A stretch of 50,105 nt of DNA from a virus (lineage: Duplodnaviria > Heunggongvirae > Uroviricota > Caudoviricetes): IMG/VR virus record IMGVR_UViG_2630968414_000007; one strand, 5' to 3'. Shown here in pieces: positions 6,001-27,000 of the stretch (its first letter is position 1; every line of letters begins with the position of its first letter). The position numbers are program-made.

Positions 6001-9000
6001 TCTCAACATTATATCCCTGAGCGCTTCAGGACCACCATTAAGCCCTGTAAGTAATAATCCAGAAAGCAAACTGTTATTGCCTCCACTCGCCAGAAAGCGA
6101 CCATCCGTTTCACTATATGTGATACTAACCGTCTGTCCGCCTACTGTAATTTCTCCACCACCACTGGCGGCCATTTGAGCACGAAGAACCTGCATTCCGG
6201 TGGAAAATGAGGATGATTGAATACCTGAAACTAATGATGGCATGACAAAACTCCCTATTTAAATATTCATTCCAAACACAGGGAGTCATAACAAACATCT
6301 CCCTGACATGACAACAAAAAAACCGGAGCCGGACTCCGGTTTTGTGAAGCTGTCGGGTTACTTCATCCAGCCAATATTTTCCCACGTCCCGTCAGCACGC
6401 AGAATTTGCAGCGGTCTTACCACGCACTGTATCTGCTTTTTATCCGCATCCAGTATCACCACCTGCGTGATTACCCTGGCCTGCTCCGGGATAATGCCAT
6501 TCTCATCGGACTCCAGAATGTCTGCCGGTCCCAGTCGCAGCTGTGCTGTAAGTAACTCCCCGTGTTCACGGCCATCATGCTTTCCGCAACCACACAGACG
6601 CTGCATAAGTTTTTTTAGTATATTCATGTCATTCTCCTGTTCTGCCTGTATCACTGCCCACTTCATCCAGCCCCTTAACATCCTGCCACGGCCCGTCACC
6701 AAACCTGACCTGCAAATGCTGAAAAAAACCCTGAACCCGTGTGGCATCTTTGGGGGCAAGAAAGGTCAGTCCGGTGATGAGTGCGCCATCTGTATCCGGG
6801 AACCAGCCATTGCTGTTTGTCTCAATAATGTTTCCCGGCCCCAGACGGAACCGTATTTGTGTCTCCCCCGGGTCGCCCTTCGGTCCCTGAGGTCCGGTTG
6901 CCCCCACCGGGCCAGCCGCACCTGTTTCTCCTTTCGGTCCCTGTGGGCCTGCCGGGCCTGCCGCACCGGTATCTCCCTTTGGACCCTGTGGACCTGCATT
7001 TCCCGTCAGACCGGTCTCTCCCCGCTCTCCCCTGTCACCTTTCGGCCCCTGCGGACCTGCCGGACCTGTATCTCCTCTCGGTCCCCGTTCACCGGTTGCC
7101 CCGACAGGGCCGGTGTCTCCACGCTCTCCTTTATCTCCCTTCGGCCCCTGAGGACCCGCGGGCCCCGGTTCCCCCTTTGGCCCGGGAGGCCCCACCACGG
7201 TGGGGATTCGGTTTACGGCTTCTTCCGCCGCTATCCTGCTTTGTTCCGCTGACTGTGCGCTTTCTGCTGACTCCCGGGCTTTTTCTGCTGCGGTCGTTGC
7301 ATCCCTGGCTGCATTACCGGCTGCACTTTCTGCCGTCTTTTTTGACAACTCAGCATCTGTTGCACTTTGTAATGACTCACTGGCTTTTTGAGCGGCCGCA
7401 GAGGCCGAGGACGAGGACGCCTCCTCTGACTGCTTTGCAGCGGCTGCACTTTCTGCCGCCTGCCGGGCTGACTCCGATGCATCCCCTGCTGAAGTGTCAG
7501 CATTTGCAGCGTTCTCTTCTGCCTGACTGGCTGATATGCCGGCATTCCTCGCGGACGTCTCCGCCTCTCCGGCATTCTTCTTCGCCTCCTCAGCGTGACG
7601 CGCCGCTTCTTCCACCATCAGTTCAAAACGACGCAGTGCCTCCGGCCGGACGTCATCCTCCGACATGGCACCGAGAAAATCATTCAGCGTACCGGGTTGA
7701 GAATCTTCATACACGGTGATGGTCCCGGCATGTGACGGAGGAAATCCCTCCACCAACAGAATGACGCTGTACTGACCGTACTCAACGTCCATGCTGTAAC
7801 GACCGGCTTCATCCGGATTTTCAGAGGCCACCGTGTTCACCACCACCGTGCTGCTGGTCCGTCTGGCTTTCAGTTGAATGGTGCAGTTCTCTACCGGTTT
7901 TCCTGTGCCGTCTTTCAGTACACCTGAAATCTTTACTGCCATATTCACCCCACAAAAAAGCCCGCCTGAACCGGCGGGCTGTCATAACACTGTGTTACCT
8001 GGCTAATCAGAATTTATAACCGACACCCACGATGAAACCGTCAGTGCGCCAGTCGCCACTGCCGGAGCCTTCATAAGCAATATCAATGGCCACGGATTCG
8101 ATCGGGTTAAACTGCACGCCAGCTCCCCACGCCAGAGACGTGTTGCTGTGGCGACCGTCATCACTTCCGGTCAGCACATCGTGCGTTTTCCCCTTGTTGT
8201 CAGTTACGCGGAGATAATCCCCGGAGAAAGTCGACACACGGCTGTAAGCCACTCCCGCCATCGCATACGCGCTGAACCATTCATTCACGCGCACAGACGG
8301 CCCCGCCATTACGCTGAACCAGCGGTTACGAACGGAATCTTCATGCCAGCGGGTATCGCTGTAACGGGTAAGCTGGCGATTCCTGTCTCCTGCATAGCTG
8401 AATGACGTCACCATCCCCAGCGTATCCGTAAACTCATAACGGTATTTCACGTTAATCCCGTTAAGATTATCGCTACCGGGAGCGTTCGTCCGGGCATGAA
8501 GATACCCCGCGCTCAGCGTGGCCTGCTGCTCAGACGCCCATGCAGGCGCGCCGGATACGGCCAGACAGATGGCTGCGGACAAAATGGCGGCATAAAGTTT
8601 ACGCATAATTACCTCTCGCTTTTCTGCAATAAAAAAGGCGTCATTTCTGACGCCCGTTATGGGTTATAAAATTCAGCTGATACTGATACCTGCTGTGGAT
8701 TTTTTCATCACCACAACCAGCAGATCGCTGATACTGGTTGTTGGTGTCCAGTTATTCGCTCCTGATGAAGATACGGTGAATGTCAGTGTCAGCGTCCCCT
8801 GTCCGGCAGGCATATCTATAACTGAGGAAAATACGCCCTGAACATCCGTCGTGGACTGATTAAAAATCTCCTGACCATTGCGGGTCACTCTTAACCGGCA
8901 GGTTGAATACCAGTATGACTGTTGGTTATTACTGTTGAAATTCTCATGCTTACCACCGCGGAATAACACTGGCGGTATCATGACCTGCCGGTCAAACTTC

Positions 9001-24000: not shown

Positions 24001-27000
24001 CCAGGCGAACCAGCACCTCCGCACACGGCTGTGCCACATCACGGATATCCCCGGCCCGGGCATCATGCGTGCCCTGCAGATATCGGATCTTTGCCATAAC
24101 CTGTTACGGGAGGCGCACGCCTCCCGTCCTCCTTATCAGACTCAGCCGCCGGACGCACTGCCGTAGTTCACTCCGGTGATCACCGCCACCGCCGCAGTAC
24201 GGCGACGACGCCAGTTGATCCAGCGCTCCGCACGGATGGCCACGCTGCCTGTCTGGAACATGGAAACCAGCTCCACCGGGGACGGCGTGGTACTGTCGCC
24301 GCCCGGCTCAGACTGCATTTCCAGTGATGCCTCGCGGGACATATCCACTGCCACGCCGCCGTCATCCGCCAGATAAATATCCGGGGCATTCACCAGCACC
24401 AGCTGGTCACCCACGTACTGGGAGACAATCACCGGCAGCCCCTGGAAGGAGCCACCCAGCAGGGTCATGTCCGGGTATTCCTTCTGACCCAGCGCATTTT
24501 TACGCATGGACAGTGCCAGGGCATTGGTGCTGGACATCAGCCAGACCGCACCGGTGGGCTGCAGGTTTGCTGCCACAAACTGTCCAAACGCAGCCTCGGC
24601 ATCCGCATCCGGGTTACCGGTTGATGCCGTGCCCTTCACATCATGGGTGATGGACGCCGGGGAGACATCTGCCACTGCGGCTTTTTTCGGGTCCACAAAG
24701 TCTGTATCCAGACGCGCCACCACCGCTTCCGCCAGCGCATTACGGACCAGTGCATCAGCAGCCGGACTGGAAAAACGGATCAATTCTTCCGTCAGTACCG
24801 CAATGGCCGACACCTTCGCATGACTGAAGGTGATGGATTCAAAATCAAACTTCGTCAGGGGTTTTGCCTTACCCTCACCCACCCAGCCGGCAGCACCGCC
24901 GGACACCTGGGCGTGCACACGGATATTGAATGGCACCTGACGAAGTGCAGGGATCCCGCCCTGACCAAATCGCCCGATAATGGTCTGCGGACGCAGGTAA
25001 TCAATAAAGTCCTGTGCGTATTCCTGATATTCAGACAGGCTGCCTGCCCACTGCGGATCCGTGGTGGTCCCCGCGCCCACTGCCGATTTCAGGACATGAT
25101 GCAGACGACTGTCATCCGGATACTGACGACGGGCCACTTCCAGGGCTTCAGATCGGACGCCTTTAGCCGCAGCCAGCGATTTGGCAAAGCGGGCGAAGCC
25201 AATCCCCTTATCCAGTTTCTGCTCCACACGGATCACCGGCGCAGAAGCCACCGCGGCCACATTCCCGTTACCGGCCTGTTTCACCGGCTGCGCCGTGGCG
25301 GCCTTACCGGCTTCCAGTTCACGCAGGCGCTTCAGGTGCGCATCCACCTGACGGATTTCCGCTGCGGTGTTGTCGTAATGCTCTTCCTCCTCCACATCCA
25401 GCGTGCGCCCTTCCTCTGCGGCTTTGGTCATGACCTCCTCAAGGGAGGCTGCCAGCGCTGCACGCTTGTTTTCAAAACTTTTAATCTGTTCGCCAATATT
25501 CATTATGGTCTTTTCCTTATGAAAAACGGTTGTTGACTGTGCCGCAGCGCCGGCAGAAGATGCGATTTTCACCACCGGTTTCCGGTTGCCGGACGCGGCA
25601 GAAAACGGGCGGTCGTAAGATTTAATGGTCCGGATGGTGCATTCCGCATTCGCGGGCATGGTGACGGCAGACACCTCCATCAGTTCCCAGCGCAGAAAAT
25701 GCAGTCCGCCTCCGTCCAGAAAGGTGTATTCATGGGGACGGAAGCCCACGGACAGCCCCCTGACCAGCCCGGTCTTAATGGCCGCCCAGACCTCATCCAG
25801 CCGGGCAGCCAGTTGCGACGGCATATCCGGTACGGGCTTCACCAGTGTTGCCGTGATTTCCAGCCCTTCGCTGACCCGGCGCACCGTACACTGCCCCACC
25901 GGGCGGGAATGGTCATGCTGCCAGAGAAACGGGATCGCACTGCCAAACTCCGCGCCCTCCGGCTCCAGGATGTCACCATCCCGATCCGGAGAAGGCGTTG
26001 ACGCAATCCCGGTGATCACCCGTTCATCCTCACTGAAGGATTTCACCGTCAGCAGGGAACAGGCCCGTTTAAGAGTCACATCAGCCTCCTGAAAATAAAA
26101 AAACCGCCGCAGCGGTTCATGATGGTTACAGTGTGAACAGGGTTATATGAAAAAAACCGCATATTCTTTCTTTTTCGGTTCCGGGTTAAGGGACATCAGG
26201 GAGACCGCATTGAACAGCGCCATCAGCGGGTCAATTTTTCCCCGTCCACTGGCCTGTTTGGTGATAAGAATGGCGTTACCTTTAGGCTCCACCCGGGCAT
26301 TGCCGACACACCAGGCCATCAGGGGCTGGTCACCATGCACCAGCACCCCTTCAGCCAGTTTGCGCTCGGTGGTTTTAATGGCCCCGCCCAGTTTCCAGCC
26401 CTGGCTTATCCCCACCACAATTCCGTCGGGGATCCCGGCTTCCGCCAGTGAATCCAGAATCTGCCCCACCCCTGACGGGTCAATACCGATATGGTCCAGT
26501 AACTCAGCCTCATGAATGCGACGCACATATTCCGCCACTTCCGCCGTGTCATCCCCGACACGCCGGACAATGGTCATATCTCCACAGGCAACAAGATCCT
26601 GAAACCGGGACGCCTCGCTCTTCCGTCGGACCACCGCGGTTTCATGCGCCCAGGCATGGCCCCAGCCCAGCCATTCGCGGGTTTCCCTGTCACGGCCAAT
26701 CACGTACATTCCCAGCAGATCATCCAGGCCCCCGCCGTCAATCCCCACCGTCACCACATCAGCGCGCTGCAGGATATCGTCCAGGCTGACGCGCCTGCCC
26801 TGCTGCTCCCAGAAATCCGCACCCGCCCAGCGGTCAGAACGCAGGGCAAGACCAATTTCCACATTGGCGTGTTTTGACATGAAGCCCCGGAATGTCTCTT
26901 CACCGGCTTCCCGTGCTTTTCGATACTCCCGGTACAGAAAGGCCTCATCCACTGAATAGCCGAGATTCGGATTGACCATGGCGAGGTTTTCCATCAGCAG

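What the first reader, a model, noticed from the sequence alone, without database searches (positions are those of the whole stretch)
6316..26116. Recurrent hairpin plus U-tract elements at gene junctions throughout the late operon
Terminator-like hairpins sit between terminase and capsid (26096), upstream of the major tail gene (19836), between T and the tape measure (18381), between I and J (12553), between J and lom (8631) and after the last tail gene (6316). Three share the form AACC(C)GC-loop-GCGG(G)TT with an A-run on the plus side. Lambda-type late operons are read under Q antitermination, so these would block only unmodified polymerase; they may insulate the silent prophage or mark processing sites.
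Basis: partly seen in the sequence, partly recalled or inferred. Interest (0 to 1): 0.5.

Follow-up and report, generated by a model that had tools for sequence, protein, structure and literature searches.

The report
Intrinsic terminators inside prophage late operon
The hairpin-plus-U-run elements are real, conserved, textbook-type transcription terminators at gene-module boundaries of a lambda-like prophage's late operon; this feature was already annotated in related phages, and its purpose is still unproven.

Summary
All six sites exist on the minus (coding) strand of a Sakai-Sp6-like lambdoid prophage. Each is a GC-rich hairpin (dG -10.6 to -24 kcal/mol) followed by 5-8 U.

- **Enrichment:** the late-operon sense strand has 8 strong hairpin+T-run sites, against 0.4 expected from shuffles and 0 on the antisense strand. 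Every intergenic gap of 40 nt or more holds a hairpin.
a seventh terminator (lom|stf), a U-less hairpin after the capsid gene, and one inside gene M.
- **Selection on structure:** relatives keep the hairpins through compensatory changes (J|lom, I|J, T|H). Lambda and HK97 carry unrelated hairpins at the same junctions.
- **Prior knowledge:** HK97's GenBank record already labels them "putative terminator". A 2020 phage L paper calls intra-late-operon terminators common with "roles not known".

An intact Q antiterminator gene lies upstream. The best reading is conditional terminators that stop polymerase not modified by Q, and that bound moron cassettes.

The I|J gap is more complex. It also holds an antisense terminator belonging to the homologue of the Hfq-bound sRNAs EcOnc22-24.

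The kind is already known, and interest is low to moderate.

The parts
26089..26118 (-). Intrinsic-terminator-like hairpin GAACCGC-UGCG-GCGGUUU plus U-run. It lies 24 nt after the TerL stop and 21 nt before the GTG start of the prohead protease-major capsid fusion gene.
   Evidence: dG -10.7, z -2.6. In 80 IMG/VR relatives only the loop and the closing A->G vary. Gene identities.
24106..24127 (-). Strong hairpin ACGGGAGGC-GUGC-GCCUCCCGU with no U-run, directly after the capsid gene.
   Evidence: dG -18.9, z -4.0. Same position as the HK97 'putative terminator' 5192-5213 and the lambda hairpin 7163-7180 after their capsid genes.
19833..19859 (-). Hairpin AACCCGC-CGCGU-GCGGGUU plus U6, between the tail-terminator gene and the major tail gene V.
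   Evidence: dG -10.6, z -2.2. The stem core is invariant in 16 of the 18 distinct upstream sequences among 80 relatives (1 single-base variant, 2 unrelated contexts). The HK97 record annotates a similar-looking hairpin 6692-6719 as 'putative terminator' at the same junction.
18379..18404 (-). Hairpin (GAG)AACCGC-UGAG-GCGGUU(UUU) plus U-run, between frameshift gene T and tape-measure gene H.
   Evidence: dG -10.8, z -2.5. Relatives carry AAACCUGC-UGUG-GCAGGUUU at this junction. HK97 carries GACCCGCU-AUCA-AGCGGGUU, there placed after the gp15 moron.
14898..14925 (-).
   Evidence: dG -13.0, z -2.3. Identical in the seven of the ten compared phages that carry this type of gene M.
12553..12584 (-). 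Sense-oriented terminator ACAGGCACCC-UCCG-GGGUGCCUGU plus CG-U5, 51 nt upstream of the J start codon.
   Evidence: dG -24, z -3.8. Allele ACAGGCAUCC..GGAUGCCUGU shows a C-G to U-A compensatory change. Lambda, HK97 and ASU11 have unrelated hairpin+U elements at the same place.
12644..12750 (+). Inferred antisense sRNA gene, homologue of Sakai EcOnc22/23/24. It has a -10-like TATCAT at 12644-12649, a conserved TTAATCTTC, and a terminator hairpin UCCCGCAG-loop-CUGCGGGA (12718-12743) plus U7.
   Evidence: Fold: (dG -13.9, z -4.6). The stem is conserved in 29 gap variants (one single-base variant) while the loop length ranges from about 2 to 17 nt. Expression itself was not measured here.
8628..8655 (-). 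Terminator GGGCGUCA-GAAA-UGACGCCU plus U6, between J and lom.
   Evidence: dG -13.6, z -4.4. Three stem alleles linked by double compensatory changes; 94.5% of cells paired; covariation 0.229 vs 0.123 +/- 0.025.
7951..7980 (-). Terminator AGCCCGCC-GGUUCA-GGCGGGCU plus U6, between lom and the side tail-fibre gene.
   Evidence: dG -18.3, z -3.5. It matches lambda 19612-19633 (AGCCCGCCGG-AACC-GGUGGGCU UUUUUGUGGGGU) over the 5' arm, most of the 3' arm and the whole tail. Stem substitutions in relatives are mostly G-U-compatible; about five rare variants lose one pair or have a 1-nt deletion.
6312..6343 (-). Last hairpin AAAACCGGAGU-CCG-GCUCCGGUUUU plus U-run. It has an A-tract on the 5' side, so it is bidirectional in form. 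It separates the tail-fibre genes from the cargo gene nleG.
   Evidence: dG -16.1, z -3.7. Similarity to most relatives stops 30-35 nt beyond it. nleG identified.
36107..36802 (-). Q antiterminator gene, context that makes the downstream terminators conditional.
   Evidence: PF06323, E 7e-92. Hairpin+T-run 36042-36021 just downstream.

Best explanation
The elements are canonical Rho-independent terminators built into the boundaries between functional modules of a Q-antiterminated late operon. The modules are packaging | head | connector | tube | tape measure | tip | J | lom | fibre | cargo.

**Shown.**
- Each is a 6-11-bp GC-rich stem with a 3-6-nt loop, followed within 0-2 nt by 5-8 U.
- All point in the direction of late transcription.
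- Each sits 6-26 nt after a stop codon and 16-51 nt before the next start codon. The exception is I|J, where the hairpin is 171 nt after the stop.
- Stem pairing and the U-run are maintained in relatives.

**Inferred.**
- RNA polymerase that starts anywhere other than pR', or starts at pR' without Q, terminates at these hairpins. This would cover spurious starts and transcripts from moron or cargo promoters in the lysogen.
- Structural genes therefore stay silent, and each inserted cassette is a closed transcription unit. Examples are lom here, and arc/ant, HK97 gp15 and HK97 gp22/23 in relatives.
- Q-loaded polymerase reads through all of them after induction.
- The hairpins that remain in the read-through mRNA may additionally protect 3' ends after processing.
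For: - **Structure, strand and enrichment:**
- **Location in every gap of 40 nt or more, with distances:**
- **Q gene present and intact:**
- **Pairing kept through compensatory changes, T-run invariant:**
- **Unrelated hairpin+U elements at the same junctions in other phages:** lambda at I|J, J|lom, lom|stf, D|E and E|FI; HK97 at tail terminator|V, before H, and before J.
- **Terminators bracket inserted cassettes:** lom; arc/ant between L and K in Sp6-type relatives; HK97 gp15 and gp22/23 morons (PMC3594210).
- **Late region poor in promoter-like sites:** 5 found against 10.2 +/- 3.6 expected.
- **Literature:** Q makes polymerase resistant to terminators (PMC7547250). The same hypothesis is stated for phage L (PMC8022706).
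Against: - No transcript 3'-end or termination-efficiency data were available, so function in vivo is inferred only.
- Rho would already stop most untranslated spurious transcripts, so the added value of intrinsic terminators is unclear.
- No sigma-70-like promoter (9/12 or better) was found for lom or in any junction, so the 'closed transcription unit' idea lacks a visible promoter.
- lom does not differ in G+C from its neighbours (0.56 vs 0.57-0.59).
- The hairpin after the capsid gene has no U-run and fits an RNA-stability role better.
- One good hairpin+U-run lies inside gene M, which the module-boundary idea does not explain.
Confidence: 0.55

Rival explanations
1. RNA-stability or processing elements. 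After Q-dependent read-through and endonuclease cleavage in the U/A-rich spacers, each hairpin caps the 3' end of the upstream segment. This protects it from 3' exonucleases and sets different half-lives for segments of the 20-kb late mRNA.
For: - A strong hairpin without a U-run sits right after the capsid gene (24127-24106).
- Hairpins occupy the same place in HK97 and lambda.
- The stems are stable and stay in the mRNA whatever polymerase made it.
Against: - Seven of the eight junction hairpins keep an uninterrupted U-run that a mere stabiliser does not need, and that run is invariant where stems vary.
- The genes upstream of the hairpins are mostly needed in low copy number (TerL, tail terminator, T, I, J). 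Stabilising them does not fit known virion stoichiometry; this point rests on established knowledge of lambda virions and is an inference.
Confidence: 0.2
2. Leaky attenuators during lytic growth. Even Q-modified polymerase terminates at a few percent per site, giving a stepwise 5'-to-3' decline in transcript dose along the operon.
For: - PMC8022706 lists partial termination as a possible role.
- PMC2629481 reports that in P22 the region upstream of the tailspike gene is thought to affect how often late transcription reaches that gene.
Against: - Terminators precede high-copy genes (capsid, V) as well as low-copy ones (H, J), so there is no consistent dosage logic.
- Not testable here.
Confidence: 0.1
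3. Neutral scars. The hairpins are terminators left behind by morons that came and went, or by recombination at module boundaries, with no present function.
For: - Relatives carry cassettes at exactly these junctions: HK97 gp15 at T|H, gp22/23 at I|J, arc/ant at L|K.
- Some homology breakpoints fall next to hairpins: L011, L134, and the end of the operon.
Against: - Compensatory double changes and loop-only variation show purifying selection on the structure.
- Broken hybrids are rare: 2 of 80 at J|lom.
- Hairpin+U elements are kept at the same junctions in phages whose sequences there are unrelated.
Confidence: 0.07
4. Small-RNA modules or promoter-coupled terminators. In one version the terminators are the 3' ends of short Hfq-binding RNAs made in the lysogen. 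In the other, their T-run and stem double as promoter elements that restart transcription of the next gene (Fletcher et al. 2026 preprint).
For: - The I|J gap does hold the homologue of an Hfq-bound, Northern-confirmed sRNA, EcOnc22-24.
- A hairpin plus a U tail is the Hfq-binding module (PMC4104026).
- TATTAT follows the T-run at the tail terminator|V junction.
- The concept is described.
Against: - The EcOnc22-24 peak maps to the antisense strand and uses the other hairpin (12718-12743), not the sense terminator.
- None of the other junctions appears in the Sakai Hfq-CRAC orphan list.
- No junction has a sigma-70 match of 9/12 or better, and the best one would start inside the ribosome-binding site.
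- Rfam gives only sub-threshold isrK matches.
Confidence: 0.08

Closest known systems
'Putative terminator' features in the late operon of phage HK97 (GenBank NC_002167, from the Hendrix laboratory's HK97/HK022 genome work; the paper itself could not be read here)
   Same: - Sense-strand GC hairpin plus T-run in short gaps of the late operon.
- Three junctions are shared with the window: tail terminator|major tail, upstream of the tape-measure gene, and upstream of J.
- The hairpin before V is similar in form (GAACCCGCC-AGAU-GGCGGGUUU vs AACCCGC-CGCGU-GCGGGUU).
   Different: - HK97 also has them at portal|protease, capsid|adaptor, V|G and K|I, where the window has none or a U-less hairpin.
- In HK97 the ones before H and J follow moron genes that the window lacks.
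Lambda late-operon intergenic hairpins (D|E 6099, E|FI 7163, I|J 15464, J|lom 18920, lom|stf 19612), and from memory the t'J terminators of Luk and Szybalski beyond J
   Same: - Same strand, same form, and same junctions for I|J, J|lom and lom|stf.
- The lom|stf element matches the window's over the 5' arm, most of the 3' arm and the whole tail.
   Different: - Lambda has no gap or hairpin at U|V or T|H, and its head module is different.
- The I|J and J|lom stems are unrelated in sequence.
Morons (independent promoter-gene-terminator cassettes in late operons; PMC3594210)
   Same: lom is bracketed by terminators. Relatives carry cassettes at the same junctions, and each cassette ends in a terminator just upstream of the next late gene.
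   Different: Most hairpins here have no accompanying extra gene or recognisable promoter. lom is not compositionally distinct.
Intra-late-operon terminators of P22-like phages (phage L, PMC8022706)
   Same: Predicted intrinsic terminator inside an operon that has a single antiterminated promoter. The authors propose the same two roles and state that the roles are unknown.
   Different: Different virion gene set, and far fewer sites per operon are described there.
tR' and the short pR' RNAs (lambda 6S RNA, StxS; PMC7547250)
   Same: Same kind of hairpin+U terminator that Q-modified polymerase overrides. The window has an AAACCCGC...GCGGGUUU hairpin about 65 nt after Q.
   Different: tR' is the regulatory switch next to the promoter. 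The junction elements lie 10-30 kb downstream and have no known RNA product.
EcOnc22/23/24, Hfq-bound sRNAs of Sakai prophages Sp15/Sp14/Sp11 (PMC4104026 Table S2; PMC7873438)
   Same: The window's I|J gap aligns with the Sakai I|J gaps that hold these peaks. It shares the terminator stem, the U-run and the conserved blocks.
   Different: - The central part of the window's gap belongs to a different sequence variant.

Membership tests
Rho-independent (intrinsic) terminator | GC-rich stem of about 5-14 bp with a short loop (3-8 nt) | tested here: met
   Stems of 6-11 bp, loops of 3-6 nt, dG -10.6 to -24 kcal/mol, z -2.2 to -4.4.
Rho-independent (intrinsic) terminator | Run of U starting within 0-2 nt of the stem base | tested here: met
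   5-8 T directly after the stem at 26118, 19859, 18401, 8655, 7980 and 6343; CG then T5 at 12584. Not met for 24127-24106.
Rho-independent (intrinsic) terminator | Oriented with transcription and placed outside coding sequence | tested here: met
   All on the minus strand, which is the late-gene strand. Seven of ten scan hits are intergenic; the antisense strand has 0 strong hits.
Rho-independent (intrinsic) terminator | RNA 3' ends in the U-run, and measurable termination by RNA polymerase | not testable with these tools
   Term-seq for strain Sakai exists (GEO series cited in PMC7547250) but cannot be read here.
Q-antiterminated lambdoid late operon | Q gene upstream of the late genes on the same strand | tested here: met
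   PF06323 Phage_antiter_Q, E 7e-92, at 36107-36802 on the minus strand.
Q-antiterminated lambdoid late operon | pR' promoter with Q-binding element, and tR' terminator just downstream of Q | tested here: inconclusive
   A terminator-like hairpin is present at 36042-36021. The promoter and Q-binding element were not identified.
Q-antiterminated lambdoid late operon | Read-through of downstream terminators only when Q is present | not testable with these tools
   Needs in vitro or in vivo transcription.
Moron (for lom and its two flanking hairpins) | Own terminator at the 3' end | tested here: met
   7980-7959, 26 nt after the lom stop codon.
Moron (for lom and its two flanking hairpins) | Own promoter | tested here: inconclusive
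   Best sigma-70 match near lom is 7/12, and the tool scan found none. Consensus matching cannot exclude a promoter.
Moron (for lom and its two flanking hairpins) | Absent from some otherwise collinear relatives; atypical base composition | tested here: inconclusive
   HK97 goes from J to stf without lom, so the absence criterion is met. G+C is 0.562 against 0.574-0.593 for the neighbours, so the composition criterion is not met.
EcOnc22-24 sRNA family (for the plus-strand element 12644-12750) | Sequence homology and same genomic position (I|J gap, antisense to the late genes) | tested here: met
   - The alignment with Sp15 is near-identical at both ends of the gap.
- All three Sakai peaks fall in I|J gaps.
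- The +128 offset between record versions was calibrated with HnrS and StxS.
EcOnc22-24 sRNA family (for the plus-strand element 12644-12750) | Expressed, about 85 nt, Hfq-dependent | not testable with these tools
   Reported for Sakai but not measurable for this window. The predicted length here is about 95 nt.
Promoter-coupled terminator (Fletcher et al. 2026 preprint) | [quoted passage not shown] | tested here: not met
   - No junction reaches 9/12.
- The best is TATTAT at tail terminator|V with a 3/6 -35.
- That promoter would start transcription inside the ribosome-binding site.

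The most novel reading that the evidence does not exclude
The junction terminators are active RNA-producing or dual-purpose elements in the lysogen, not passive safety stops. Like the I|J module, which holds the homologue of the antisense Hfq-bound sRNA EcOnc22-24, other late-operon junctions would yield short hairpin-plus-U-tail RNAs that bind Hfq, or would couple termination to re-initiation. The 'silent' structural operon of the many EHEC prophages would then be a distributed source of regulatory RNA.
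Probability: 0.08. Interest if true: 0.55.

Novelty: already known. Interest (0 to 1): 0.22.

Why it matters
Embedded terminators are a general design feature of lambdoid late operons. They tie expression of about 20 kb of structural genes strictly to one antiterminator, and they let prophage cargo such as lom, antirepressor cassettes and effectors be expressed or silenced independently.

Their real role is still stated as unknown in the literature (PMC8022706). EHEC strains carry a dozen such prophages, and published Term-seq and dRNA-seq data for strain Sakai could settle the question cheaply.

The practical gain from this window is modest:
- a precise, comparatively supported list of the sites;
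- evidence that their structure is under selection;
- placement of the EcOnc22-24 sRNA homologue and its terminator within the I|J gap.

Tried and rejected
- **Rfam.** At gathering thresholds nothing matched at any junction. At E <= 1 there were only sub-threshold isrK matches (24 bits against a cutoff of 50) at two hairpins, which probably reflect the generic terminator shape.
- **First home-made scan.** It allowed large loops and was too permissive, with about 95 hits per strand, so I discarded it.
- **Small protein in the I|J gap.** A 31-codon ORF exists in the window, but its ATG is ACG in several relatives, so I rejected it.
- **EcOnc22 placement.** I first placed it on the complement of the sense I|J terminator. 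I corrected this after finding a +128-nt offset between the Sakai record versions.
- **Other Sakai Hfq-CRAC sRNAs.** EcOnc33, 54, 35, 52, 47 and HnrS do not map to the junction hairpins.
- **Pas sRNA paper.** Not relevant to these sites.
- **Promoter-coupled terminator idea.** No adequate -10/-35 pair was found.
- **Mosaic-boundary idea.** Homology breakpoints coincide with hairpins only at the operon end and in a few single loci. Others fall inside J or at M|L, so the link is anecdotal.
- **I|J covariation.** It is not significant by the shuffle control (75/500), because there is only one compensated pair.
- **T|H alignment.** It was not structure-consistent, so no pair count was made.
- **Papers and data not available.** The Juhala et al. 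2000 paper is not held, and the supplements of the Term-seq paper are not held.

Full report
**Context**

- The window is a lambdoid prophage of the type found many times in EHEC genomes.
- Bases 14088-29208 are 98% identical to prophage Sp6 of E. coli O157:H7 Sakai.
- The 21-kb late region matches Stx-converting phages at about 95%.
- The late operon runs on the minus strand. Its gene order, is:
  - a degraded small-terminase gene, then TerL (26143-27804);
  - a prohead protease-major capsid fusion (24142-26079), a 73-codon gene, portal, adaptor, head closure, neck, and tail terminator (19879-20223);
  - V (19104-19820), G, T (to 18410), H (15120-18362), M, L, K, I (12756-13436) and J (8673-12509);
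  - lom (8007-8606), side fibre (6629-7942) and a small fibre gene (6358-6627).
- Upstream on the same strand lie:
  - an intact Q antiterminator gene at 36107-36802 (Pfam PF06323, E 7e-92);
  - a hairpin+T-run 65 nt after Q;
  - three tRNA genes, STnc100, a sialate esterase gene and the lysis genes.

- ViennaRNA gives dG of -10.6 to -24 kcal/mol and z-scores of -2.2 to -4.4 for these six sites. At most 4 of 200 shuffles fold as well.
- I wrote a scan requiring a perfect stem of 5 bp or more, a loop of 3-8 nt, and at least 5 T in 8 nt starting 0-2 nt after the stem. On the sense strand 6300-27804 it finds:
  - 10 sites at dG <= -6.5, against 1.5 +/- 1.2 in 100 dinucleotide shuffles;
  - 8 sites at dG <= -9.5, against 0.4 +/- 0.6;
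  - on the antisense strand, 2 and 0.
- Seven of the ten lie in intergenic gaps, which are about 3.4% of the region.
- Seen the other way round, all eight gaps of 40 nt or more contain a strong hairpin, and junctions without a hairpin are overlaps or gaps of 14 nt or less.
  - the lom|fibre terminator (7980-7959);
  - a U-less hairpin right after the capsid gene (24127-24106);
  - a hairpin+U-run inside gene M (14925-14906);
  - an antisense-facing terminator in the I|J gap.
- The shared AACC(C)GC...GCGG(G)TT form is real for three sites, and two more copies lie in the early-right region.
- It is simply a common terminator stem. Lambda and HK97 use it too.

**Selection on the structure**

Variants came from nine related phage records and from IMG/VR contigs found with V, Lom, I and the capsid-fusion N-terminus.

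| Junction | What varies |
|---|---|
| J\|lom | Three stem alleles: GGGCGUCA/UGACGCC, GGGCGCCA/UGGCGCC, GGGCACCA/UGGUGCC. They differ by double compensatory changes, and only 2 of 80 loci are broken hybrids. |
| I\|J | ACAGGCACCC/GGGUGCCUGU against ACAGGCAUCC/GGAUGCCUGU (C-G to U-A), plus G-U intermediates. 98% of cells are paired, but with one compensated pair the shuffle control is not significant (75/500). |
| T\|H | AACCGC/GCGGUU against AAACCUGC/GCAGGUUU, a base pair inserted on both sides. One relative has a U-G wobble. |
| TerL\|head | Only loop bases and a closing A to G (G-U) vary. |
| tail terminator\|V | The stem core is essentially invariant. |

- For J|lom the formal count on 16 distinct sequences gives 94.5% of cells paired.
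  - Three pairs have changes on both sides.
  - The covariation score is 0.229 against 0.123 +/- 0.025, with 0 of 500 shuffles as high.
  - Slid controls give 33-59% paired.
- The T-run is invariant in the J|lom and I|J alignments. At lom|stf one of 19 variants interrupts it.

**Positional conservation with sequence turnover**

- Lambda has sense-strand hairpin+U elements at D|E, E|FI, I|J, J|lom and lom|stf.
- Lambda's lom|stf element matches the window's over most of its length. Its I|J and J|lom stems are unrelated.
- The HK97 GenBank record carries seven "putative terminator" features inside the late operon.
- Three of those lie at the window's junctions: tail terminator|major tail, just before the tape-measure gene, and just before J.
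- Phage ASU11 has yet another hairpin before J.
- So the pattern is a long-annotated property of lambdoid late operons, not something peculiar to this window.

**Link with inserted cassettes**

- In HK97 the terminator before H follows the gp15 moron, and the one before J follows the gp22/gp23 morons (PMC3594210).
- Sp6-type relatives carry an arc/antirepressor cassette between L and K, with a terminator at each end. The window has a 10-nt L|K gap and no hairpin there.
- lom is bracketed by two terminators in the window and in lambda.
- The last hairpin separates the fibre genes from the cargo (a split nleG here, other effectors in relatives). Similarity between phages ends about 30-35 nt beyond it.

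**What the literature says**

- Q-modified polymerase ignores terminators, and late genes are silent in lysogens because pR' transcripts stop at tR' (PMC7547250).
[quoted passage not shown] It suggests either partial termination or a stop for spurious transcription that lacks antitermination (PMC8022706).
- For P22, the region before the tailspike gene is thought to influence how often late transcription reaches that gene (PMC2629481).

**Mechanism and its rivals**

I favour conditional terminators that act on polymerase not modified by Q and that delimit cassettes (confidence 0.55). Three observations support this:
- A termination-competent U-run is conserved, which a stabiliser hairpin would not need.
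- Orientation is strictly with late transcription.
- Terminators precede both high-copy genes (capsid, V) and low-copy genes (H, J), which argues against a dosage gradient or selective stabilisation.

The rivals stand as follows:
- An RNA-stability role remains plausible as a second function. It is the better fit for the U-less hairpin after the capsid gene.
- Neutral scars are unlikely given the compensatory changes.
- Promoter-coupled terminators (2026 preprint) are not supported. No junction has a sigma-70 match of 9/12 or better, and the best one, TATTAT before V, would start inside the ribosome-binding site.

Weak points of the favoured model:
- No RNA-end data were available.
- No visible lom promoter was found.
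- lom is not compositionally distinct.
- The internal site in M is unexplained.

**The I|J gap is a module, not a lone terminator**

- The 246-nt gap is conserved in architecture across 29 sequence variants.
- From the I end to the J end, on the late-gene (minus) strand, it contains:
  - an A-run, then a hairpin UCCCGCAG-loop-CUGCGGGA whose stem is conserved (one single-base variant) and whose loop length ranges from about 2 to 17 nt;
  - conserved blocks, including TTAATCTTC as read on the plus strand;
  - a plus-strand -10-like hexamer, TATCAT here and TATAAT, AATAAT or GATAAT in relatives;
  - a nearly invariant 35-nt block;
  - the sense terminator, 12584-12561.
- Read on the plus strand, the first hairpin is a canonical terminator (12718-12743 plus U7, dG -13.9, z -4.6).
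- Tree et al. 2014 list three homologous Hfq-crosslinked sRNAs: EcOnc22, 23 and 24. They run at about 85 nt on Northern blots and are destabilised without Hfq. They lie in Sakai prophages Sp15, Sp14 and Sp11.
- In NC_002695.2 all three coordinates fall in the I|J gaps, on the strand opposite the late genes.
- The paper used the older record, which I recall as 5,498,450 bp against 5,498,578 bp now. I calibrated the +128 offset in two ways:
  - With HnrS, whose mazF-complementary seed and terminator I located by sequence.
  - With the StxS terminator, using the published transcription start and its distance to tR'.
- With the offset applied, the EcOnc22 peak lies just 5' of and into the plus-strand terminator.
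  - This fits an RNA of 85-95 nt running from about 12656 to 12750 in the window.
  - This is inference from homology; expression was not measured, and the promoter assignment is tentative.

**Verdict**

- The finding is correct as an observation and reasonable as an interpretation.
- It describes a known, previously annotated class of elements.
- Its remaining value is that the function is still open and could be tested with existing Sakai RNA-end data.

Noticed in passing
window 12644-12750, plus strand: Homologue of the Hfq-bound sRNAs EcOnc22/23/24 of Sakai prophages, lying antisense in the I|J gap. It has its own terminator (12718-12743 plus U7) and a conserved -10-like hexamer. Function is unknown in the literature.
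   Followed up: yes
window 29399-29464, plus strand: A copy of the sRNA HnrS (EcOnc10-12), which represses hha. It carries the mazF-complementary seed CCCAATCAGTACATT (29418-29432) and a terminator at 29433-29457. The surrounding 450 nt are 100% identical to Sakai Sp10. It lies antisense to the late genes, between Rz and the DUF3950 gene.
   Followed up: partly
window 24106-24127, minus strand: Very stable hairpin (dG -18.9) without a U-run, directly after the capsid gene. HK97 and lambda have a hairpin in the same place, so it is a candidate mRNA 3' stabiliser.
   Followed up: partly
window 14898-14925, minus strand: Good hairpin+U5 inside the coding sequence of minor tail gene M, identical in every compared phage that carries this type of gene M. 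It may be chance or an internal terminator.
   Followed up: partly
window 27801-28376, minus strand: The small-terminase gene is broken into short ORFs. Against the Sp6 gene it shows 94% identity with 15 gap openings in 578 nt. Either the prophage is defective or this stretch carries assembly errors.
   Followed up: partly
window 10279-10998: Perfect (100%) tandem duplication of 357 bp inside J. This makes J 1278 residues, against 1158 in the closest phage.
   Followed up: no
window 21811-22403: 3.7 tandem copies of a 162-bp unit (97% matches) in the C-terminal half of the 876-residue portal gene.
   Followed up: no
window 791-6243: Degraded cargo region. nleG is split into two ORFs (5670-6243). 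A DUF4765 gene is broken at 2503 and interrupted by an IS3-family element (3496-4709), whose frameshift pseudoknot is the Rfam ALIL hit at 3777-3893.
   Followed up: partly
loci L086, L088, L090, L093 (between L and K homologues): Sp6-type relatives carry an arc/antirepressor cassette between L and K, with a terminator at each end. The Sakai sRNA peak EcOnc54 lies inside that cassette. The window lacks the cassette.
   Followed up: partly
window 19837-19932 and 18381-18448, minus strand: Sub-threshold Rfam matches to isrK (24.7 and 23.7 bits against a cutoff of 50). isrK is the short RNA made from the antiterminated late promoter of Salmonella Gifsy-1. The matches probably reflect the shared terminator shape only.
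   Followed up: no
window 34701-34873, 38812-38986, 45832-45883: Rfam gathering-level hits to STnc100, the sok antitoxin RNA and DicF elsewhere in the prophage. Three tRNA genes (Met, Arg, Arg) lie at 35647-35896, downstream of Q.
   Followed up: no
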